Below the pieces are notes generated by a model, which was given only the letters and a program-made list of their open reading frames with translations, was not told the origin of the DNA and did not search any database. Shown piece after piece: positions 14,083 through 33,496 of a stretch of 60,544 bases of DNA. Origin of the DNA: Patescibacteria group bacterium UBA924 (GTDB lineage: Bacteria > Patescibacteriota > Microgenomatia > UBA1400 > PJMF01); contig DBDU01000016.1 in the NCBI GenBank assembly GCA_002293725.1, forward strand, positions 1 to 60,544, written 5' to 3'. Every line of letters starts with the position of its first letter. The stretch's first letter is position 1. The position numbers were made by a program, and so were the translations under genes.

Positions 14083-14748
14083 TTAATCAATGTGCAGTTC
14101 AGGGTTCTTCTTGTGCTCCATCTTTGCTTTGACAAACTCAAAGATCATTGGCACTACAGAGATACCAATGATGGCAAAGACAACAATAGTGAAGTTTTCT
14201 TTCACCGCCGGGATGTTACCAAAGAAGTAACCAGCTAAAGTGAAAGACAGTACCCACACCACACCACCAATAATGTTGTACAGAATGAACTTGCTGTAAT
14301 CCATCTTACCCACACCGGCTACGAAAGGAGCAAAGGTGCGAACAATCGGCACAAAGCGAGCTAAGATAATAGTCTTACCACCATGCTTAGCGTAGAAAGC
14401 TTGTGTTTTATCAATATGCTTTTGATTGATAAACGGGACCTTTGGACTATCAATAATTTTTTGACCCAAGAAGTGACCAATCCAGTAGTTAACCGTGTCA
14501 CCTAAAATCGCCGCAGCAACCAAGATGGCCAAAACAAAGAAGATATTCAAGTCACCAATGGCTGCAATTGCTCCGGTAGCAAAAAGAAGTGAGTCTCCTG
14601 GAAGGAAGGGCGTCACCACTAACCCTGTCTCAGCAAAAATAATTAAGAATAAGATTGCGTAAGTGAGAAACCCATAGTTAGAAACGATCTCGACTAAGTG
14701 TTTATCGAGATGAAGAATAAAGTCAACAAAAAGATGAATAATTTGCAT
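14083..14748 (-). CDS. DedA-family (SNARE-associated/VTT domain) membrane protein
   Basis: ETGLVVTPFLPGDSLLF and RFVPIVRTFAPFVAG motifs. The ATG at 14748 is chosen. The longer ORF approaches the tRNA promoter region. Confidence 0.8.
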   Translation of the reverse strand: MQIIHLFVDFILHLDKHLVEIVSNYGFLTYAILFLIIFAETGLVVTPFLPGDSLLFATGAIAAIGDLNIFFVLAILVAAAILGDTVNYWIGHFLGQKIIDSPKVPFINQKHIDKTQAFYAKHGGKTIILARFVPIVRTFAPFVAGVGKMDYSKFILYNIIGGVVWVLSFTLAGYFFGNIPAVKENFTIVVFAIIGISVVPMIFEFVKAKMEHKKNPELHID

Positions 14749-14816
14749 ATCCGTATATCTTACCACCGCCTTAAAGCGACTTGTATCATTCCCCAACAAG
14801 GAAGACAAAAATACGC

Positions 14817-15863: not shown

Positions 15864-16874
15864 ATGAATCAAAAGAGTAGTTCCAATAATCTAATTAAAG
15901 ATACAATTCGGCTTTTCTTGACAGGCTTTTTGATGGGGTCTGCTGATTTAGTTCCAGGAGTTTCAGGTGGAACTGTAGCCTTCTTGCTTGGTATTTATGA
16001 AGAGCTCATTTACGGAATTAAAGTTACTAGTGGACAAGCACTGCGATTACTTATTAAAGGCAAGATTAAGGAAGCAATCGCTTTAGTTCCATTTCGTTTC
16101 TTTATTCCACTTGGTCTAGGTTTGGCTTCAGCAGTCATTACTCTTTCTGGCCTTATCACACACTTCTTGGTTACTTATCCATCACTCATGTGGGCGTTTA
16201 TTTTTGGACTATCAGTAGCTTCCATCATAGTAGTTAGTAAACGCGTAGTAACTTGGGATCTACATGACTATGTTGCTACTGCAGTAACAGCCGTGATTGC
16301 CTACTTTGTAGTAGGAATGGTGCCTGTTTCAACTCCTGACACTTGGCTAGCGTTCTTCCTCAGTGGAGTAATCGCAATTTGTGCCATGATTCTGCCAGGC
16401 ATTTCTGGATCATTTATTTTAGTGATTCTAGGTAAGTATGAACAAGTTTTAGGAGCGATATCAGATCGCAACTTCCTTGTAATATTTATTTTTGGACTAG
16501 GGGCGTTAGTGGGTATTGCAGTTTTCTCAAGAGTCCTGAGTTGGCTATTTAAAAAACATCATGACATCATTGTCGCTCTTCTCACTGGAATAATGATTGG
16601 CTCTTTGCGCAAAGTGTGGCCATGGAAAGAAACAATTTCTACTCGCTTAAATAGCCATGGGGAGCTCGTTCCACTTGTAGAGCAGAATGTTATACCAGAA
16701 GCATTTACAAATGATGTGCTCTTCTCGCTTCTGCTTTTTGGATTAGGAGTTATAACTGTGCTTGGCCTGGAGAAGTTACAGGCTACTAAAGAAGTTACTA
16801 CCGATATCGACAATCCAGCATTTACAAAAGAACATGCTAAAGCTCTCAAATCACAAGAGAGCCATCAAGTCTAA
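15864..16874 (+). CDS. DUF368-family membrane protein (PopT-like polyprenyl-phosphate transporter family)
   Basis: Duplicated GSADLVPGVSGGTVAFLLGIYE / LPGISGSFILVILGKYE motifs. About 8 TM segments. Confidence 0.75.
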   Translation: MNQKSSSNNLIKDTIRLFLTGFLMGSADLVPGVSGGTVAFLLGIYEELIYGIKVTSGQALRLLIKGKIKEAIALVPFRFFIPLGLGLASAVITLSGLITHFLVTYPSLMWAFIFGLSVASIIVVSKRVVTWDLHDYVATAVTAVIAYFVVGMVPVSTPDTWLAFFLSGVIAICAMILPGISGSFILVILGKYEQVLGAISDRNFLVIFIFGLGALVGIAVFSRVLSWLFKKHHDIIVALLTGIMIGSLRKVWPWKETISTRLNSHGELVPLVEQNVIPEAFTNDVLFSLLLFGLGVITVLGLEKLQATKEVTTDIDNPAFTKEHAKALKSQESHQV

Positions 16875-25087: not shown

Positions 25088-26752
25088 CTAGAGGGCAAGG
25101 AAGCCTACGATACCGAGGATGATCGCTAGTGCTCCAACTCCCATAGCTTTGAGCACATCTGCACTTCCGGCCACTGGCAAGCTGGTTGGCTGCTGTGGTT
25201 GTGGTGAAGGTTGCCCTTGAGCAACTGCTTGACCAGCTGGTGTACAGGTGTCGCTAGTAATGTTCGTCTCTAAGCGGCAGCGGCGTCCACTTGTAGTGTC
25301 AACACAGATCTGGCTTGCTGATTTACAGTCAGAGTTGTTGACACAAGTGTCATTACATCCAAGGACTGGTGAAGCCACTGGTGATGGATTGACGATCGAA
25401 CATTGATTACTGTCACAGTTCGCTCCGTTGACACAAGCCGTTAGCTTACATGTGCCACCATTACAGGTGTGATCATTTGGACAGTCTGCATTGGTGCTAC
25501 AGGTACTTCCACAAGCAGTCACTCGACATTGATCACCGCTACAACTGGCGCCGTTGACACATGCATTGAGTTTGCAAGTCCCATTGTTACAGCTATGGTC
25601 GTTTGGACACTCACTAGTGGTACTACATGAGCTGCCACAAGCAGTGACGCGACATTGATCGGTTGTACAGGCTGCTCCGTTGACACAAGCTGTGAGTTGG
25701 CAGGTTCCGTTGTTACAGGTGTGATCCTGAGGACACTCACTAGTGGTACTACATGAGCTGCCACAGACAATAGGTGTTGGCGATGGACTTACACCTGGGG
25801 TTGGGCTGACCACTGGGCTTGGAGTCACACCAGGAGTTGGTGAAGCTGCAGGACTTGGGCTCACACCTGGGGTCGGGCTTGGCTGTGGTGAAGTACCAGG
25901 AGGGACTGAAGGTTGAGGAGATGATCCTGGTGGAGTAGTTGGGGTTGGAGGCGTACATGCCACATTTGGACAGACAACCACTGCACTGACTAATGTTGAG
26001 TAGTCATTGTTAATATGTCCATTAACACATGAGTTGCTGCCACCTGTTAAGACGTCGACCTGGACACATTTACATGATTGGTTGGCGATCTGTTGGGCAT
26101 TTACTGTTCCAGTAGTAACTTGAGGATTGAGCACTGTACAGTGGCCGTTAGAGTCTAACTGATCACATTGATGAATAGCGATACAGCCGCCAGGTTGGCT
26201 ACTACAAGTTGTTCCCTGACAAACATCTCCACCACCACCGGTTCCTGGAGTAGCTGAAGGTCGAGGAGTAGGTGAAGATGTACCAGCGGGACCGCCACCA
26301 CAGCGACCACTGCTACAGGTTACATTTGCATTACAACTTTGCTCGTTAACAAAGACGCCGTCTTGACAGGTAACTTGGGTTCGAAGGTCTTTACACGCTG
26401 TTTGACCATGGGCGACACCACCAGCACAACTGCGCTGAGTGGCGACACATTTAGAGGCATTACTTGCTCCAGCGTCGCAAACTTGACTACTAGAACACGC
26501 CGCCATCATCTCGAAAGCACCGTTATTACAACGAGCTGGTTGACGGAAACCGGCACAGGCATACCCACCACTTGGAACTCCGCCAGCACAACTGGCATAT
26601 CCTGCAGCTTGTTGACGAATTTCTTGAGGTCGGCTGACTAAGTAAAGACCTACCGCTCCGCCAATCACTAAAAGAAGCAAAACAAGTCCAAGGAGAACGT
26701 ATCTCAACTTAATTTTTTTCAAGCTTTCGGAGTTGATTTGGGGTAACTGCAT
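25088..26752 (-). CDS. Cys-rich modular cell-surface protein (N-terminal signal anchor, PT-rich linker, LPVAG-type C-terminal anchor)
   Basis: N-terminal TM helix and many Cys. A 62-aa Pro/Thr/Ser linker. Three 42-aa repeats of the form [42 protein letters not shown]. The C-terminus is LPVAGS plus a hydrophobic helix. Confidence 0.7.
25388..25765. repeat. Three tandem ~126-nt coding repeats (42-aa Cys-rich modules)
   Basis: Residues 330-371, 372-413 and 414-455 of the surface protein are near-identical in Cys spacing. A fourth degenerate module follows. Confidence 0.85.
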
Positions 26753-27664: not shown

Positions 27665-28573
27665 TCAAGCAGATTCGCTCGGAGGTCGTTGAAACTCTGC
27701 CCATGCTTCCAGGTAGCAACTATCCCCTTGTTGTGCTTTCCATAGCCAATACTCCACTCCCCAAAACAGAATAGTCGAGACGGGAAGTTGTGAAGCACGT
27801 TGCACGAACTGACGAAGAAGATCTGGGCTACAACTTTTGGGAGTAGAAGCTAGGTATCCCGCTTCATCCTTTTCCCAAGGCTCTGCTTGTAGCTCAGTTA
27901 TCCAAACTTCTTTCTCTGCTTCGTCTAATAGGGCTGTCATCCGAGTGGTGCTGTCATCAGGTCCGATGTACCTCTCCCCACGCCAAGTATCAGCGTACTG
28001 TTGATAGTAGACATCAATCCCCACAACATCAGCATTCTCAGCTAAGACTGGTAATAACTGTCGTTTACTCAATGTATTTCCCCAGGCTGTGAGCAAGACT
28101 GGACGAGAATCGTGCTGACGAACGAGATCAACTTCTCTATCTAAAAGTGAAGTTGGAACTGTCCACTCATGCTCCCCACTTGGATCTAGTGGCTCATTCT
28201 CTACTTGCCAATGGCTAATGCAGCTAAACGTAGCGAAGTGAGAGACCGCGTGTTGTAAAAAAGTAAGTACTGCTGTCTGTGTTGCTGGTGAGTGAGGATC
28301 TTGGGCAGCCCAACTGGGGATATAAAACTCTGGCCAACGTGGCGCTTTCATGCCTAGTACTAACACCACGTTTTGCCCGTACTTCTCGCACTGATGAAGT
28401 AGCTCTTCGATGACAGTAAAGTCATACGTACCTTGCTGTTGTTCTACCTCATTCCAGTACACACACAACCTGATGTATGAAAAGCCTAGGTTCAAACACT
28501 CCTGAAAAGCCTGCTTCGGATCAAGTCCTAAGTATTGAGCTTGTCGATGACTAAAAGTAATGCCGTACTGCAT
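27665..28573 (-). CDS. Glycoside hydrolase, clan GH-A TIM barrel (GH5-like)
   Basis: WQVENEP (acid/base NEP) and WITELQAEPW (nucleophile Glu) with appropriate spacing. The start is uncertain: ATG 28573 is preferred, with alternatives ATG 28651 and TTG 28693. Confidence 0.6.
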   Translation of the reverse strand: MQYGITFSHRQAQYLGLDPKQAFQECLNLGFSYIRLCVYWNEVEQQQGTYDFTVIEELLHQCEKYGQNVVLVLGMKAPRWPEFYIPSWAAQDPHSPATQTAVLTFLQHAVSHFATFSCISHWQVENEPLDPSGEHEWTVPTSLLDREVDLVRQHDSRPVLLTAWGNTLSKRQLLPVLAENADVVGIDVYYQQYADTWRGERYIGPDDSTTRMTALLDEAEKEVWITELQAEPWEKDEAGYLASTPKSCSPDLLRQFVQRASQLPVSTILFWGVEYWLWKAQQGDSCYLEAWAEFQRPPSESA

Positions 28574-28649
28574 GGGTGCGTAAGAAGATTCTAGTTGTAG
28601 ATCATACCCTTCTTTAGTACCGTGGATAAAAGTACTTTTGAAAGACGTC

Positions 28650-29846
28650 ATGCACGAATATGAACAGGGTATAGATATTACTGATCGCGTCAATAAACTG
28701 GAGAACGGCCTGCTCCGAGAATCTTATAACCCACAGGGCCACAAAGAGAGTCACTTTACGCTTTTACTTGGACAAGTAGAGGGTGTCGACTTCAATCTTA
28801 CAGACCCAGACGGACCACTGGGTGATCGGGTAATCATGAGCGGCTTTTACCGCGCACTTGAGTATCTCATCGCTCGTTACTATCCCCAAACGGTAGATGG
28901 AGAGATGGGTTCAAGAAATCATATCTTGATGTTACCTCAGGTAATGCCACTTTTTTCTCGATCAGGAAGAGAAGTATCGCCATATATTCAAGCCGGTACT
29001 ACTTTTCCTCGAAGTAGTGAGCGACTCGCTGTGAATGCTACGATCGCCATGGTCATTAATGCCAAAATGAGAGTCTTATTAGAAGGAGACCCTACTAAGT
29101 TCTTGCTGTACCAACAGTTCGGAGAGAAAAAAAAGTCAATTGAAGTAGATTACGCCGGAGCTCTTTATACCGTTACATATGACAAGTATCAGGAGCGTCG
29201 ATACATCATCGCTGCCGCACTGGCGCTAGGAATTCCGGAGAGTCAATGGGACGATCTTCCCACTATCATCCCAGAGGTTCTCCCTCCATCTGCTGAAGAG
29301 CTGACTGCGGCTCAACAAAAGTTTGAGATTGAACCTGGAGCACTTCACCTCGGAGTAGTGATTAACACCTCCTTAGAAGAAAAGTTCGTTCCTCTAGCTC
29401 AATGGAAAAAGATGCTGGTAAGGATAGAGCAAGACCTCCAGCAGCAAGGGTACGACTTTGAGAGTCGACCTGTACATGTTCACGTTTTTTATAATCCTCG
29501 CAGTCCAGGAGCTCTTGATTTTCCGTTAGATCAAGTCCAGTCAACTTTTGGTGATAAACTCGGTCAGTTAAACATCCATTATTTAGGGGCAGAACTGAGT
29601 GAACTTCCAGCTGCACTACAACTACAAACGGTTCTCTTGTCTGTAGACACTGCCTTAGCTCATATTGCCGCTGCACTGCCTGAAGGCCCAGAAGTAGCGA
29701 TGATCTTTGAAGATTATCACTGGCCAGCTAATGTCTGGCAGTCCAATCATAAGCAGCATCCTATTTTTAAAGGCGATGCACTAGAAGATCAGTTTCATCA
29801 GACTTCAATGTCACTTATTCACCAACAGATGAAAACTGGGAAGTAA
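28650..29846 (+). CDS. GT9-like glycosyltransferase (heptosyltransferase-family fold), paralog A
   Basis: N-terminal PLGDRVIMSGFYRALEYL (GT9 LGD motif) and C-terminal LLSVDTALAHIAAAL (GT9 DSGPMHLAAAL-type motif). The ATG at 28650 is preferred over the TTG at 28638. Confidence 0.5.
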   Translation: MHEYEQGIDITDRVNKLENGLLRESYNPQGHKESHFTLLLGQVEGVDFNLTDPDGPLGDRVIMSGFYRALEYLIARYYPQTVDGEMGSRNHILMLPQVMPLFSRSGREVSPYIQAGTTFPRSSERLAVNATIAMVINAKMRVLLEGDPTKFLLYQQFGEKKKSIEVDYAGALYTVTYDKYQERRYIIAAALALGIPESQWDDLPTIIPEVLPPSAEELTAAQQKFEIEPGALHLGVVINTSLEEKFVPLAQWKKMLVRIEQDLQQQGYDFESRPVHVHVFYNPRSPGALDFPLDQVQSTFGDKLGQLNIHYLGAELSELPAALQLQTVLLSVDTALAHIAAALPEGPEVAMIFEDYHWPANVWQSNHKQHPIFKGDALEDQFHQTSMSLIHQQMKTGK

Positions 29847-29855
29847 AACACGGCC

Positions 29856-31157
29856 ATGCCAACTCGTAACTTTGATCAACGTGCACAGTTCATGCCAGCC
29901 GATGAGAATAAAGGTGAGAACATTACCTTTTTGATTGACCGAGGCGAAGACGTGATGACTGCTCAGTATGAGGCAGCTGTTCAGCAAGCAGCTGAAACGC
30001 ATCCTGGCTCTGAGCGCTTCATCTATCGACCCACATTCTTAGGGAAGCAACTGGAGAGTCGGGACGGGATTGACTTTAATCTTGCTGATCCGGGAGCTGC
30101 ATTAGGTGACAGATTAATTTGGACTACTTTTTTCCGCGCTTTTGATGTTCTCTCACAACTGTATGCGGATAAGTTTCGCCCTGGGGAGCTGCCTCCGCTC
30201 CAAAATACACTTTATATCACTCCTGAAATCTTGCCCTTATTTGAAAGAGACGGACGAACAGTCTCATCACTCATTACAGGAGCGCCTCAATCCCCAAGAA
30301 CCTCTGGCCGACTAAGTTTTGTGGCGCATTACTCTATGAGCGCGATGGGGGCAGCGCATGCTCGGATGGTAGGTAATGAAGGTCGCTTCCTTTCTTACCG
30401 TCAATTTGACCTTCCCGATCAGAAGAATAGTTTAGAAGTAGAGTACGGTGGGGCGTTAGCTACAGCTACTTATGATAAGTATGGTCCGAAGCGCTACACG
30501 ATTGCGGCAGCCCTTGCTCTAGGTATTCCTGAGGGTGAGTGGGACTCGCTACCCACCATCGTCCCCGAAGTTTTGACTCCCCATGATGATGAGTACCGCC
30601 AAACCATCGAGCGTTTTGGTGTAAATAATGAAGCTATTAACATCGGAATCGTGATTAACTCGCAACTGCGAGTAAAAATGGCAACACTAGAGGTGTGGAA
30701 ACATATTATGTTCGCCACTGGACTAGGTATCTTCCGTAAACAGCTGAATCCCAATCAACGACCCATCCATTTTAATGTTTTTTACAATCCATCCTCGCCC
30801 AGTCGGGATGACTATAAAGTAGAAGAAATGCAAGCCATGTTTCAAGACAGAATTACTTATATTTCCCCCAAAAGTGATAATGAGACAGTTGGTGAAGTAA
30901 AGTACATTGGAGCCAATTTAGCTGAGTTACCTGCGTTATTGGAAGCACAAGATGTGCTTCTTTCTGTCGATACAGCGTTGGCACATATTGGAGCAGCACT
31001 AGAGTTTGGCCCTGAGGTAATCATGATGTTTAATAACAGTCAGTTTTCTCAACAAGAGTGGCAGTCGAGCAGTAAACAACACCCCGTGCCGATGACCGGA
31101 GGGTACTCCGATCAAGTAGCTAACTTAGCCTTACAACACCTTCGCTTAAAAGCGTAA
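29856..31157 (+). CDS. GT9-like glycosyltransferase, paralog B
   Basis: Collinear with paralog A (ALGDRLIWTTFFRAFDVL; YDKYGPKRYTIAAALALGIPEGEWDSLPTIVPEVL; LLSVDTALAHIGAAL). Starts 9 nt after paralog A. Confidence 0.5.
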   Translation: MPTRNFDQRAQFMPADENKGENITFLIDRGEDVMTAQYEAAVQQAAETHPGSERFIYRPTFLGKQLESRDGIDFNLADPGAALGDRLIWTTFFRAFDVLSQLYADKFRPGELPPLQNTLYITPEILPLFERDGRTVSSLITGAPQSPRTSGRLSFVAHYSMSAMGAAHARMVGNEGRFLSYRQFDLPDQKNSLEVEYGGALATATYDKYGPKRYTIAAALALGIPEGEWDSLPTIVPEVLTPHDDEYRQTIERFGVNNEAINIGIVINSQLRVKMATLEVWKHIMFATGLGIFRKQLNPNQRPIHFNVFYNPSSPSRDDYKVEEMQAMFQDRITYISPKSDNETVGEVKYIGANLAELPALLEAQDVLLSVDTALAHIGAALEFGPEVIMMFNNSQFSQQEWQSSSKQHPVPMTGGYSDQVANLALQHLRLKA

Positions 31158-31163
31158 TTAAGT

Positions 31164-31823
31164 ATGCAACAGATCACACAATGGCTTACTCATCTCGCAA
31201 CCGATGTTCCTCTCGAACTGTTTGTTTTTATTGGTACTGTTATTGAAGAAATTATTGCCCCGATTCCGACGCCAGTGGTTTTAGGGACGGCGGGCTACCT
31301 AGCACATCAGGCTGGTCAAGGCTGGTTCTTCCTCTTTTGGCTGGCTGCGGTAAGTTCTGTTGGCAAAACACTGGTCTCTGTGGTGTTTTACTTCTTGGGT
31401 GACAAAGCAGAGGACTTTTTCGTTCACCGCTGTGGCAAGTTCTTTGGCATTAGTCCAACAGATATCCAAAAAGCTGAACGGTGGATGAATAAAGGATGGT
31501 GGGATGAAGTCATCCTGGTTGGGTTGCGGATCGTGCCTATTGTGCCCACCTTTGCGGTATCCATTGTCTGTGGTGTCCTGCGAGTGAAAATGCGCACTTT
31601 CATTTGGACCACTTTTATTGGAACGTTAGTCCGAAGTTTCATTATTCTTGGTGTGGGTGCATTAGGTACTCAATACGCAGTCGATGCTTGGAAAACTACG
31701 GGCTCAGACCTCTTTCAAGATCCACTCACCGTAGCTTCCGGAATTATTGGTTTAATTTTGGGCGCTGGAATTGCCCTTTATCTTCGCAAGAAGATGCTTC
31801 GTCGGACTCCCCAAAAAGAGTAA
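31164..31823 (+). CDS. DedA-family (VTT/SNARE-associated) membrane protein, second copy
   Basis: VFIGTVIEEIIAPIPTPVV and LRIVPIVPTFAVSIVCG motifs. Starts 6 nt after GT9-like B. Confidence 0.7.
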   Translation: MQQITQWLTHLATDVPLELFVFIGTVIEEIIAPIPTPVVLGTAGYLAHQAGQGWFFLFWLAAVSSVGKTLVSVVFYFLGDKAEDFFVHRCGKFFGISPTDIQKAERWMNKGWWDEVILVGLRIVPIVPTFAVSIVCGVLRVKMRTFIWTTFIGTLVRSFIILGVGALGTQYAVDAWKTTGSDLFQDPLTVASGIIGLILGAGIALYLRKKMLRRTPQKE

Positions 31824-31868: not shown

Positions 31869-32501
31869 ATGTCTACATTAGCTCCCAGAGAAAAATTACA
31901 ACTCCACGGCGTAAGTCAATTGAAGACAACTGAACTGGTTGCTTTGGTACTCGGCACGGGAACTGCGCAGCACTCCGTCACCGAGTTAGCCAATGAAGTT
32001 GTTGAACGTTTACAGCAACATCCATTGACTTTAGAAAAGTTAACTCAGGTGCCGGGAATTGGCATCGCAAAAGCTTGCCAGCTTTTAGCAATGATTGAGT
32101 TTGTGGAGCGAGTTCGCCCCATTGGTTTTCCAGTTATTGATCAACTAGACAAAGTTACTTCCCTTGTACCTGAACTGAGATCGGCACAAAGAGAACATAT
32201 TGTGGTACTTTACCTGAATGCTCGACTTCAGCTGTTGCTAAAAGAAACGGTGGCTATTGGCAGTGTTAATCAGTCTATCGTCTCAGCCCGAGATATTTTT
32301 TCAGTTATTAAGTATCATCCGGTTAGTTCATTAATTCTTGTTCACAATCACCCCAGTGGGGTACCTCTTCCTTCCCCTGAAGACTTCATTTTTACGCAAC
32401 GAATAGTTCAGGCAGCCGAGGTACTCGGAATTGAAGTTTTGGATCACGTCATCATCGCTGAAAAAGGTTGCTACTCATTTAAGGAACATCAACAGCTGTA
32501 A
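31869..32501 (+). CDS. radC: RadC-like JAB/MPN domain protein
   Basis: PREKL...G...L...EL N-terminus, HhH region (VPGIGIAKACQLLA), and JAMM motif LVHNHPSG. The ATG at 31869 is chosen. Confidence 0.8.
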   Translation: MSTLAPREKLQLHGVSQLKTTELVALVLGTGTAQHSVTELANEVVERLQQHPLTLEKLTQVPGIGIAKACQLLAMIEFVERVRPIGFPVIDQLDKVTSLVPELRSAQREHIVVLYLNARLQLLLKETVAIGSVNQSIVSARDIFSVIKYHPVSSLILVHNHPSGVPLPSPEDFIFTQRIVQAAEVLGIEVLDHVIIAEKGCYSFKEHQQL

Positions 32502-32845: not shown

Positions 32846-33496
32846 CTATGTTCTCTGGAATCCTTGAGCTTCAAGCTGATGGACGGCGTTCCAAATACTC
32901 ATCGGAACTTCCTGCTCAACTTGAAAACCCTGTTGAGCATAATCTCGCATTCGATAGACATATCCAATCATCGCGTTGATCACTCGCCTGGCACTGTGTC
33001 GTTCGTCCAAGAATGAAGTAAAGATACTAGGAAGACTTGTAATCACTACCTGTTGATTCGGCCAAATTTTTTGGAAGGTAGCGAGTGCTCGTCGTTCCAT
33101 GTATGGCTTTGTGACTACTAAAAAGCTGTGGAGTTGAAGTGATTTCTCAGCTAGCAACTGACGTGTAAAAGTAATGTTTTCGCCTGTGTTCGTCGCACGA
33201 TGTTCAAGCAACAGTACAGCTCTACTTACGCCATTTGCTTCCATCACCTGGGCAAACTTTTCGGCTTCCGAGAATGGTAAAAAATGACTAGAATGCCGGG
33301 AAGCCTGGCCCGTGATTACAACATACTTCGCCATTCCTCGATTGAAAAGATCTGCAGCATACTTCGCTGTTCGTAAGTCGTCATTTCCAAGAACGATCAT
33401 GCACTCTGCTGGTTGAAGTGATTGATGCAGGCAGTGGTAGTTCCACAGTAAATCCGCATATGAAAGGAGTTCAGTCGAAAGAAGCTGTGCCATCAT
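32846..33496 (-). CDS. DUF218 (YdcF/ElyC/SanA-like) domain protein
   Basis: CMIVLGNDDLRTAKYAADLFNRGMAKYVVITG ... NTGENI, typical of the DUF218 Rossmann-like core. Confidence 0.65.
   Translation of the reverse strand: MMAQLLSTELLSYADLLWNYHCLHQSLQPAECMIVLGNDDLRTAKYAADLFNRGMAKYVVITGQASRHSSHFLPFSEAEKFAQVMEANGVSRAVLLLEHRATNTGENITFTRQLLAEKSLQLHSFLVVTKPYMERRALATFQKIWPNQQVVITSLPSIFTSFLDERHSARRVINAMIGYVYRMRDYAQQGFQVEQEVPMSIWNAVHQLEAQGFQRT

What the first reader, a model, noticed from the sequence alone, without database searches (positions are those of the whole stretch)
27665..31823. Candidate envelope-glycosylation locus: clan-A glycoside hydrolase divergent from two tandem, highly divergent GT9-like genes plus DedA
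**The two paralogs.** ORFs 28650-29846 and 29856-31157 are collinear, with shared blocks such as YDKY..RY.IAAALALGIPE..WD.LPTI.PEVL. Both retain the two landmark GT9 (heptosyltransferase) motifs: an N-terminal LGD(R)(V/L)I...F.RA and a C-terminal LLSVDTALAHI(A/G)AAL. Both also have 50-80 aa N-terminal extensions.

**Operon context.** A DedA-family protein follows after a 6-nt gap, from the family that includes polyprenyl-phosphate transporters. A GH5-like hydrolase is transcribed divergently. A DUF218/ElyC-like gene lies 1 kb downstream at 32846-33496.

**Why it matters.** GT9 enzymes are classically LPS-core heptosyltransferases or autotransporter protein O-heptosyltransferases (TibC/Aah type). 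No other LPS genes are visible here. A Ser/Thr/Pro-rich surface protein (25088-26752) sits 1 kb upstream and is a plausible substrate. Together this suggests an undescribed lipid-linked or protein-directed glycosylation system.
Basis: partly seen in the sequence, partly recalled or inferred. Interest (0 to 1): 0.65.

Follow-up and report, generated by a model that had tools for sequence, protein, structure and literature searches.

The report
Tandem divergent GT9 glycosyltransferases plus DedA
An ultra-small bacterium that has no LPS carries two adjacent, very divergent copies of a sugar-transferring enzyme related to LPS heptosyltransferases, followed by a lipid-carrier-transporter-like gene; this is a real, lineage-specific three-gene block of unknown target, and the neighbouring hydrolase and surface protein do not belong to it.

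Summary
ORFs 28650-29846 (A) and 29856-31157 (B) are 41% identical paralogs. They are followed after 6 nt by a DedA/VTT gene, and a clan-A glycosidase is transcribed divergently.

- **Family.** Direct Pfam GT9 hits are below threshold. However, distant homologs pass the GT9 cut-off, a family profile hits the GT9 structure 3tov (1e-8) and WaaC/WaaF, and the AlphaFold model's best fold matches are GT9 structures.
- **Active-site residues.** The counterparts of WaaC Asp13, Lys192, Asp261 and His266 are kept in both copies.
- **Genome.** It is a ~1.1 Mb Patescibacteria (Microgenomatia-type) genome with no LpxC and no GmhA. These are therefore not WaaC/WaaF.
- **Subfamily.** A and B belong to a rare GT9 subfamily, found mostly in Patescibacteria MAGs, that also forms modules inside giant proteins.
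- **Distribution.** None of 60 relatives has the pair.
  - In a same-genus genome the glycosidase abuts RadC directly.
  - In another relative the site holds a truncated, stop-interrupted GT9 remnant plus an intact DedA.
  - So A-B-DedA is an accessory block, and the glycosidase, DUF218 and PT-rich protein are only neighbours.

Donor and acceptor remain unknown. Interest is moderate.

The parts
28650..29846 (+). GT9-like glycosyltransferase paralog A (398 aa). It is soluble and acidic, with pI 5.2. Key residues: Asp59 (nt 28824-28826), Lys245 (29382-29384), Asp333 (29646-29648) and His338 (29661-29663).
   Evidence: It is 41% identical to B. Its Pfam GT9 hit is sub-threshold at 15.1 bits. It scores 359 bits against the family profile A1, of which it is itself a member. 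dN/dS is 0.28 against a 97.9%-identical strain.
29856..31157 (+). GT9-like glycosyltransferase paralog B (433 aa). It is soluble and acidic, with pI 5.2. Key residues: Asp85 (nt 30108-30110), Lys274 (30675-30677), Asp372 (30969-30971) and His377 (30984-30986).
   Evidence: An exhaustive HMMER search gave 26 hits in 1.84e9 representatives, and the distant ones pass the Pfam GT9 cut-off. Profile A1 hits 3tov at 1.2e-8 and WaaC at 0.0075. In the AF2 model the C-domain is confident, and the top fold hits are 3tov, 1psw and 2gt1. dN/dS is 0.10.
31164..31823 (+). DedA/VTT-family membrane protein (219 aa), a UptA-like candidate polyprenyl-phosphate transporter. It is the third gene of the block.
   Evidence: PF09335 scores 66 bits against a cut-off of 33.9. 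NCBIfam UptA models score 56 and 47 bits, far below their equivalog cut-offs. The gap after B is 6 nt. dN/dS is 0.03. The gene is intact next to the dead GT9 remnant in L028.
27665..28582 (-). Flank only, not part of the block: a cytoplasmic clan-A glycoside hydrolase (305 aa) with VENEP and ITELQ catalytic motifs. Its GH family is unresolved.
   Evidence: Pfam gives GH42 23.7, GH10 23.2, GH5 23.0 and GH35 16.2 bits. PDB hits are GH10, GH42, GH35 and PslG. It is present in 9 of 60 relatives, none of which has GT9. It lies next to RadC in G001.
31869..32501 (+). Flank: RadC/JAB gene on the same strand, 15-45 nt after DedA. It may be co-transcribed, but it is the ancestral neighbour of the glycosidase.
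   Evidence: PF04002 scores 117 bits. Synteny is seen in G001 (L020) and L028. No terminator-like site lies between DedA and RadC; the only + strand one lies inside the end of DedA, at 31760-31776.

Best explanation
**What is shown**
- Genes 28650-29846 (A) and 29856-31157 (B) encode two soluble, cytoplasmic, probably active GT-B glycosyltransferases.
- They belong to a rare, divergent subfamily of CAZy GT9 / Pfam PF01075. This subfamily is found mostly in Patescibacteria MAGs, both as solo enzymes and as modules inside giant proteins.
- The two genes form one lineage-specific clade, so they arose by tandem duplication in or just before this lineage.
- Together with the following DedA gene they form a 3.2-kb accessory block inserted between an older glycosidase gene and radC.
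- The host genome has no lipid A pathway and no canonical heptose pathway, so these are not LPS core heptosyltransferases.

**What is inferred**
- By analogy with WaaC/WaaF, the two enzymes use the conserved N-terminal Asp as general base. The Lys and Asp-x4-His motif would hold a nucleotide-sugar donor of unknown identity; an ADP-sugar is not excluded.
- They would add sugars, probably one after the other, to a non-LPS acceptor on the cytoplasmic side of the membrane.
- The acceptor I consider most likely is a lipid-linked glycoconjugate whose carrier lipid is handled by the co-transcribed DedA protein.
- The system is dispensable. It is absent in same-genus genomes and decayed in a relative, as expected for a variable surface-decoration trait.
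For: **GT9 identity**
- The paralogy is strong: 41% identity, E = 3e-95.
- Distant homologs of B (E from 7e-11 to 3e-6 against 1.84e9 proteins) pass the Pfam GT9 gathering score at 31-64 bits.
- Family profile A1 hits the GT9 structure 3tov across both domains (1.2e-8), WaaC (0.0075) and WaaF (0.035).
- The AF2 model has pTM 0.67 and C-domain pLDDT of 80-95. Its best Foldseek hits are 3tov, WaaF and WaaC.
- The counterparts of WaaC Asp13, Lys192, Asp261 and His266 are kept in A and B. Their roles are taken from bioRxiv 10.1101/2021.06.16.448588.

**Selection and cell location**
- Both genes are under purifying selection: dN/dS is 0.28 for A and 0.10 for B.
- Neither has a TM segment, and both have pI 5.2.

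**Not LPS**
- No LpxC and no GmhA were found in the 92%-complete genome.

**Block structure**
- Gaps within the block are 9 and 6 nt, with no terminator-like site between the genes.
- In G001 the glycosidase abuts RadC.
- In L028 a GT9 remnant and DedA sit at the same site.

**Subfamily placement**
- A, B and the L028 remnant form a clade with SH-aLRT support of 100. It sits inside a subfamily that includes giant-protein modules scoring 238-363 bits on the A1 profile over its full length.
Against: **Weak points in the family and structure evidence**
- Direct family hits for A and B are below every curated cut-off.
- The N-terminal, acceptor-binding domain is poorly modelled, with pLDDT below 50 for residues 107-193.

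**Weak points in the DedA and lipid-acceptor link**
- The DedA link is seen only in this lineage.
  - Other subfamily members sit among housekeeping genes with no DedA.
  - L028 keeps DedA although its GT9 gene is dead.
- The genome already has a second VTT/DedA gene and a DUF368 gene, so DedA need not serve the GT9 pair.
- Both enzymes are acidic, which is not what one expects for proteins docking on anionic lipid-linked acceptors.

**Gaps**
- No donor pathway was identified.
Confidence: 0.5

Rival explanations
1. A and B are protein glycosyltransferases, working like the TibC/Aah autotransporter heptosyltransferases. They would glycosylate a cytoplasmic protein or a not-yet-exported protein, for example a Ser/Thr-rich surface protein. 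DedA would be an unrelated neighbour.
For: - Both enzymes are soluble and acidic, with no membrane-binding features.
- The same GT9 subfamily occurs fused into giant proteins, some of which also carry PP2C/SpoIIE protein-phosphatase domains. This fits a protein-directed activity.
- Solo homologs lie in non-glycan contexts.
- A PT-rich, LPVAG-anchored surface protein lies about 1.9 kb upstream of A, and paralogs exist elsewhere in the genome.
Against: - A and B give no hit to the Aah/TibC model TIGR04414 at E <= 1.
- TibC-type structures are not among the top 50 fold hits.
- The PT-rich protein is conserved (65% identity over 268 aa) in L028, where the GT9 gene is truncated and interrupted by a stop.
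- Nothing links the PT-rich gene to the block. It lies on the other strand, with the ZIP and glycosidase genes in between.
Confidence: 0.25
2. A and B are free-standing versions of the interchangeable GT9 enzyme modules carried by giant Patescibacteria proteins. They would act on host molecules (host envelope glycans or proteins) using a host-derived donor such as ADP-heptose, and not on the bacterium's own envelope.
For: - They share a subfamily with the giant-protein modules, which match the A1 profile over its full length at 238-363 bits.
- The genome lacks GmhA, yet the residues that contact heptose in WaaC (Lys192, Asp261, His266) are kept.
- The distribution is patchy, evolution is fast, and the gene has been duplicated in one lineage and has decayed in another. 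This is typical of interaction genes.
- Earlier AI notes, which are unchecked leads, proposed that such giant proteins are secretion cargo.
Against: - There is no secretion signal and no link to secretion genes at this locus.
- In the tree A and B sit in a clade of solo enzymes, not among the giant-protein modules.
- The host is unknown.
- The idea is entirely inferential.
Confidence: 0.08
3. The pair is a decaying or functionless remnant (pseudo-enzymes) that drifts in this lineage. Only DedA would be doing anything useful.
For: - The pair is absent from 60 of 60 relatives.
- The homolog in L028 is truncated and carries an in-frame TAA in two samples, while its DedA is intact.
- dN/dS of A (0.28) and B (0.10) is higher than that of most neighbours (0.01-0.06).
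Against: - Both ORFs are full length.
- All four signature residues are kept in both copies after divergence to 41% identity.
- dN/dS is well below 1 for both.
- The genes are intact in a second strain and in five further cluster members.
Confidence: 0.1
4. They are ordinary WaaC/WaaF-type LPS inner-core heptosyltransferases.
For: The best-scoring named models are heptosyltransferase I, II and III, and two adjacent paralogs recall waaC and waaF.
Against: - No LpxC was found in the genome.
- No GmhA was found, and there is no heptose kinase beyond generic PfkB kinases.
- Scores of 18-21 bits compare with equivalog cut-offs of 185 bits.
- The genome is a ~1.1 Mb Patescibacteria genome. By established knowledge, this phylum lacks an outer membrane.
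Confidence: 0.02

Closest known systems
LPS heptosyltransferases WaaC (HepI, PDB 2gt1/2h1h) and WaaF (HepII, PDB 1psw), and the uncharacterised Veillonella parvula GT9 protein (PDB 3tov); CAZy GT9 / Pfam PF01075
   Same: - All have the GT-B fold, and these are the best profile and fold matches.
- The N-terminal Gly-Asp general base is conserved, as are the Lys and the D-T-x-L-x-H donor motif.
- There are two adjacent paralogs, as with waaC and waaF.
- All are cytoplasmic.
   Different: - The host has no lipid A-Kdo acceptor and no canonical ADP-heptose pathway.
- Identity to the GT9 structures in the fold alignments is only 14-16%.
- Scores fall below all curated cut-offs.
- A and B carry N-terminal extensions of 45-70 aa.
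- The proteins are acidic.
- The subfamily also occurs as modules inside giant proteins of 1200 to over 3300 aa.
Bacterial autotransporter heptosyltransferases (BAHT: TibC, Aah; NCBIfam TIGR04414)
   Same: These are GT9-related GT-B enzymes that act in the cytoplasm on a non-LPS (protein) acceptor. They show that this fold is not restricted to LPS.
   Different: - A and B do not match TIGR04414.
- There is no autotransporter substrate, and the phylum is regarded as lacking an outer membrane (established knowledge).
- BAHT structures are not among the top 50 fold hits.
DedA-family undecaprenyl-phosphate flippases (B. subtilis UptA/YngC; P. aeruginosa PA4029, PMC12893004; PMC11474028)
   Same: The third gene has a VTT/DedA domain, and its best named models are UptA.
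   Different: - It scores 56 bits against an equivalog cut-off of 250.
- It is one of three candidate polyprenyl-phosphate transporter genes in this window.
- Its lipid substrate is untested.
GT9 modules on giant Patescibacteria proteins
   Same: They belong to the same GT9 subfamily, matching the A1 profile over its full length at 238-363 bits.
   Different: - A and B are solo enzymes in a separate, long-branched clade together with other solo proteins.
- This genome has no giant-protein copy.

Membership tests
CAZy GT9 / Pfam PF01075 (Glyco_transf_9) | A match to the family model above the curated gathering score | tested here: inconclusive
   A and B score 15.1 and 16.7 bits against a cut-off of 22, over the C-terminal motif only. 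Their homologs P0005-P0015 (E from 7e-11 to 3e-6 to B) score 31-64 bits, above the cut-off. Profile A1 hits the GT9 structure 3tov at 1.2e-8 over both domains.
CAZy GT9 / Pfam PF01075 (Glyco_transf_9) | GT-B fold (two Rossmann-like domains) that most resembles solved GT9 structures | tested here: met
   The AF2 model has pTM 0.67. Its C-domain is confident, but its N-domain is mostly low-confidence. The Foldseek top hits are 3tov, 1psw, 2gt1 and 2h1h, at E from 3e-6 to 6e-4. Other GT-B families score weaker.
CAZy GT9 / Pfam PF01075 (Glyco_transf_9) | The catalytic Asp in the N-terminal G-D motif, the phosphate/sugar-binding Lys, and the D-(T/S)-G-x-x-H donor motif (WaaC Asp13, Lys192, Asp261, His266) | tested here: met
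   A has Asp59, Lys245, Asp333 and His338. B has Asp85, Lys274, Asp372 and His377. The roles of the residues come from 10.1101/2021.06.16.448588. The Gly of the DTG motif is Ala in both copies.
CAZy GT9 / Pfam PF01075 (Glyco_transf_9) | An ADP-heptose (or other defined nucleotide-sugar) donor | not testable with these tools
   There is no GmhA and only generic PfkB kinases. Two stand-alone RfaE-domain-II-like adenylyltransferases score 121 and 94 bits, below the cut-off of 181.5. One of them lies next to NadD and NadE. The donor is unresolved.
WaaC/WaaF LPS core heptosyltransferases | A lipid A-Kdo acceptor pathway present in the organism | tested here: not met
   PF03331 (LpxC) gave no match at E <= 0.1 in the 92%-complete genome, while the control genomes gave hits.
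WaaC/WaaF LPS core heptosyltransferases | An equivalog-level match to TIGR02193, TIGR02195 or TIGR02201 | tested here: not met
   The best scores are 20.6 and 18.1 bits against a cut-off of 185.3.
BAHT (TibC/Aah) protein O-heptosyltransferases | A match to TIGR04414 and an adjacent autotransporter substrate | tested here: not met
   A and B give no TIGR04414 hit at E <= 1. The neighbours are a glycosidase, DedA and RadC.
DedA / UptA polyprenyl-phosphate transporters | A VTT/DedA domain above the Pfam cut-off | tested here: met
   PF09335 scores 66.2 bits against a cut-off of 33.9.
DedA / UptA polyprenyl-phosphate transporters | A UptA equivalog score, or demonstrated C55-P flipping | tested here: not met
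   NF052604 scores 56.2 bits against a cut-off of 250, and NF052605 scores 46.9 against 300. Transport activity cannot be tested here.
Clan GH-A glycoside hydrolases (GH5, GH10, GH35, GH42) | A family-level model match, plus the Asn-Glu-Pro acid/base and the Glu nucleophile | tested here: inconclusive
   GH42 scores 23.7 (cut-off 21), GH10 scores 23.2 (cut-off 22.1), GH5 scores 23.0 (cut-off 23.5) and GH35 scores 16.2 (cut-off 27). The motifs WQVENEP and WITELQ are visible in the sequence. The clan is clear, but the family is unresolved.

The most novel reading that the evidence does not exclude
The two genes are solo members of a GT9 subfamily, found mostly in Patescibacteria, that has been freed from LPS biosynthesis. 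In other genomes this subfamily is mounted as a module on giant proteins. In this reading the enzymes act at the epibiont-host interface. They would use a scavenged or host-derived ADP-sugar (the genome has no GmhA but keeps the heptose-contacting residues) to glycosylate host envelope or host proteins. The tandem pair plus DedA would be a lineage-specific variant of that interaction toolkit.
Probability: 0.08. Interest if true: 0.8.

Novelty: new variant of a known kind. Interest (0 to 1): 0.4.

Why it matters
GT9 enzymes are textbook LPS-core enzymes. Here a recognisable but very divergent GT9 subfamily sits in bacteria that have no LPS and no canonical heptose pathway. In this subfamily the residues that bind ADP-heptose in WaaC are intact.

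Working out its donor and acceptor would show what this fold does outside LPS. It would also add a piece to the almost unknown envelope and surface chemistry of Patescibacteria.

For this locus itself the value is more modest. The block is lineage-restricted and dispensable, and it has no conserved partners beyond one DedA gene. It is best seen as a convenient pair of small, soluble, expressible representatives of the subfamily, which is otherwise often buried in giant proteins.

Tried and rejected
**Searches that added little or failed**
- Single-sequence AlphaFold of B failed, with mean pLDDT 32. Only the run with the 14-sequence alignment was usable.
- Single-sequence phmmer of B against PDB gave nothing significant.
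- The word-indexed homolog search found only the two window proteins, and with the profile only two more.
A trimmed alignment, A2, worked.
- The promoter and terminator scan was uninformative.
- PADLOC and PHROGs gave no hits for A, B or the glycosidase.
- Literature searches for GT9 or heptosyltransferases in Patescibacteria/CPR found nothing relevant.

**Ideas rejected**
- The glycosidase as a functional partner: its distribution and synteny are independent of the GT9 pair.
- The PT-rich protein as a dedicated substrate: it is conserved where the GT9 gene is dead.
- DedA as the genome's only Und-P transporter: tblastn found one copy, but Pfam found a second VTT gene at 14083-14808 and a DUF368 gene at 15864-16874.
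- DedA lying 5 kb from the glycosidase in G035 as a sign of linkage: the genes in between are unrelated.
- Two further weak GT9-motif ORFs in the genome (C19, C15) as members of the same subfamily: hhalign probability was 40% and 0.4%.
- A heptose pathway based on the RfaE-II-like genes: they score below the cut-off, and one sits in a NadD-NadE context.

Full report
**Observation.**
- ORF A (28650-29846, 398 aa from the ATG) and ORF B (29856-31157, 433 aa) lie 9 nt apart on the + strand.
- They align over 375 residues at 41% identity, E = 3e-95, and the alignment includes the quoted blocks.
- A VTT/DedA protein (31164-31823; PF09335, 66 bits) follows after 6 nt.
- A clan-A glycosidase is transcribed divergently, with borderline hits to GH42, GH10, GH5 and GH35.
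- DUF218 (32846-33496) and a PT-rich protein (25088-26752) are present.
- With the gene-caller's start the glycosidase is 305 aa (27665-28582), which leaves a 67-nt divergent spacer.

**Are they GT9?** Taken directly, the evidence is only suggestive.
- Pfam PF01075 scores 15.1 and 16.7 bits against a cut-off of 22, over the C-terminal motif only.
- NCBIfam heptosyltransferase I scores 18-21 bits against a cut-off of 185.
- Single-sequence phmmer against PDB found nothing.

The indirect evidence is consistent.
- An exhaustive HMMER scan of 1.84 billion representative proteins found only 26 hits. The distant ones (E from 7e-11 to 3e-6) pass the Pfam GT9 gathering score at 31-64 bits.
- A 14-sequence family alignment, A1, hits the Veillonella GT9 structure 3tov over both domains (1.2e-8), then WaaC (0.0075) and WaaF (0.035).
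- AlphaFold with that alignment gives pTM 0.67. The C-domain is confident (pLDDT 80-95) and the N-domain is weak. Single-sequence folding had failed.
- The best Foldseek PDB matches are 3tov, WaaF and WaaC, followed by other GT-B families.
- The alignments place A Asp59, Lys245, Asp333 and His338, and B Asp85, Lys274, Asp372 and His377, on WaaC Asp13 (general base), Lys192, Asp261 and His266 (donor contacts).
- Both proteins are soluble and acidic (pI 5.2) and have no TM segment.

I conclude that both are genuine, probably active, very divergent GT9-type enzymes.

**Not LPS.**
- The assembly is 1.13 Mb in 30 contigs and 92% complete.
- Earlier notes and the labels of related MAGs place it in Patescibacteria. 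The one same-class genome with a strong match is a Roizmanbacteria MAG, which points to Microgenomatia.
- LpxC is absent and GmhA is absent.
- The only PfkB kinases look like nucleoside kinases or ribokinases.
- Two stand-alone RfaE-domain-II-like adenylyltransferases exist, at 121 and 94 bits against a cut-off of 181.5. One sits beside NadD and NadE, so they are not evidence for a heptose pathway.
- Earlier notes of this scan claim non-canonical heptose routes in other CPR genomes. I therefore treat the donor as unresolved, not as proven non-heptose.

**Subfamily.**
- Giant proteins of 1200 to over 3300 aa, some also carrying PP2C/SpoIIE domains, hold a module that matches the A1 profile over its full length at 238-363 bits. 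Generic GT9 proteins score only 36-79 bits on the same profile.
- In a sample of 401 genomes of the phylum, only the window's genome and one Roizmanbacteria MAG gave strong matches. In that MAG the matches lie in a 1650-aa protein and an adjacent 598-aa protein. About 5% of the genomes gave weak, generic GT9 matches.
- In a quick tree, A, B and one remnant (see below) form a long-branched clade with SH-aLRT support of 100. This clade groups with other solo proteins and is separate from the giant-module clades.
- Two MAG contigs labelled Gammaproteobacteria also carry giant proteins with this module. I did not check those labels.

**Extent of the unit.**
- None of 60 relatives has a match to the A1 profile. 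The set comprises 2 same-genus, 34 same-family and 24 same-order genomes.
- The glycosidase is present in 9 of these 60 relatives.
- In the same-genus genome G001 the glycosidase lies directly next to, and divergent from, RadC, followed by the HTH gene. Nothing lies between them.
- In a metagenomic relative, L028, the order is ZIP, glycosidase, then a 181-aa fragment, a 69-aa fragment, DedA, RadC and HTH.
  - The two fragments are one reading frame. It lacks the N-terminal ~140-160 residues, including the LGD base, and is interrupted by an in-frame TAA. The sequence is identical in assemblies from two samples.
- A-B-DedA is therefore a 3.2-kb accessory block between two older neighbours. It is intact and duplicated here, decayed to a GT9 pseudogene plus an intact DedA in one relative, and absent in another.
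- Against a 97-98%-identical strain (L005), dN/dS is 0.28 for A, 0.10 for B and 0.03 for DedA. Most neighbours have 0.01-0.06. A and B are thus under purifying but relaxed selection.

**Links that fail.**
- The glycosidase is an ancestral neighbour and not a partner.
- The PT-rich protein stays conserved where the GT9 gene is dead.
- Other members of the subfamily lie among housekeeping genes with no DedA or glycan genes nearby.
- DedA is not the only candidate carrier-lipid transporter. The same window holds a second VTT gene (14083-14808) and a DUF368 gene (15864-16874), although most relatives lack DUF368 and about half lack this DedA.
- PADLOC and PHROGs gave nothing for A, B or the glycosidase. 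The promoter and terminator scan was uninformative, and read data were unavailable.

**Mechanism.**
- Shown: two intact GT9-type GT-B enzymes with catalytic and donor-site residues conserved, located in the cytoplasm, tightly spaced with a DedA gene, in an organism without LPS.
- Inferred: an inverting transfer from a nucleotide sugar, with the N-terminal Asp as base, probably in two successive steps by the two paralogs.
- Inferred acceptor: a non-LPS molecule at the cytoplasmic face. A lipid-linked glycoconjugate served by DedA is the leading guess.
- A protein acceptor (BAHT-like) is a serious rival, because the proteins are acidic and soluble and because the module occurs fused to giant proteins.
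- A host-directed role and functional decay are minor rivals.

**Verdict.**
- This is a new variant of a known kind: a GT9 subfamily outside LPS.
- The locus itself is a small, dispensable, lineage-specific block, so interest is moderate.

Noticed in passing
window 14083-14808 (-) and 15864-16874 (+): A second, divergent VTT/DedA gene (PF09335, 79 bits) and a DUF368/PopT-type gene (PF04018, 283 bits) lie in the same window. This 1.1-Mb genome therefore has three candidate polyprenyl-phosphate transporters. Only 4 of 40 relatives have DUF368, and both same-genus genomes lack DUF368 and also lack a homolog of the block's DedA.
   Followed up: partly
L028 6001-6876 (JGI 3300078830, Ga0654416_0000092), and L029: This is a GT9-like pseudogene at the syntenic site of a relative. 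The N-terminal domain is deleted and there is one in-frame TAA, identical in two samples. The adjacent DedA gene is intact.
   Followed up: yes
genome C19:6263-7498 (+) and C15:17169-17309 (-; 432-aa open frame around this Pfam hit): Two more ORFs (412-aa and 432-aa frames) carry weak GT9-like C-terminal motifs, for example VGVDSGTTHLA with a GLGD motif upstream. hhalign against the A1 family gave only 40% and 0.4% probability.
   Followed up: partly
P0009, P0012, P0016-P0023, P0025; L066 7993-12945 (G436, Roizmanbacteria MAG); L071-L074: Giant proteins of 1200 to over 3300 aa carry the same GT9 subfamily as an internal or C-terminal module, sometimes with PP2C/SpoIIE phosphatase domains. In G436 a 1650-aa carrier and a 598-aa carrier lie side by side on opposite strands, with their 3' ends facing each other.
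   Followed up: partly
L072 (CAZCCG010000001.1) and L074 (CAZGZD010000001.1): Two MAG contigs labelled 'uncultured Gammaproteobacteria' (393 kb and 119 kb, GC 45-47%) encode giant proteins with this GT9 module, at 326 and 270 bits. Either the labels are wrong or the family is not confined to Patescibacteria.
   Followed up: no
window 25088-26752 (-): The PT-rich, Cys-repeat surface protein ends in SLPVAGS followed by a hydrophobic tail, which looks like a sortase-type anchor. It has partial paralogs on contigs C10 and C7. It is extremely conserved between strains: 1 non-synonymous against 48 synonymous differences.
   Followed up: partly
genome C24:11474-12103 (+) and C3:12739-13233 (-): Two stand-alone nucleotidyltransferases have RfaE domain II (heptose-1-P adenylyltransferase) as their best NCBIfam model, at 121 and 94 bits, below the cut-off. 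The C24 copy directly follows NadD and NadE, which suggests a role in nucleotide-cofactor metabolism.
   Followed up: partly
window 32846-33496 (-): The DUF218 gene shows an unusually high dN/dS (0.28; 7 non-synonymous and 7 synonymous differences) between the two strains, compared with most neighbours.
   Followed up: no
L024 (G031:C4:51645-52508): In one relative the homolog of the clan-A glycosidase lies inside a 601-aa open frame, so it may be fused to another domain.
   Followed up: no
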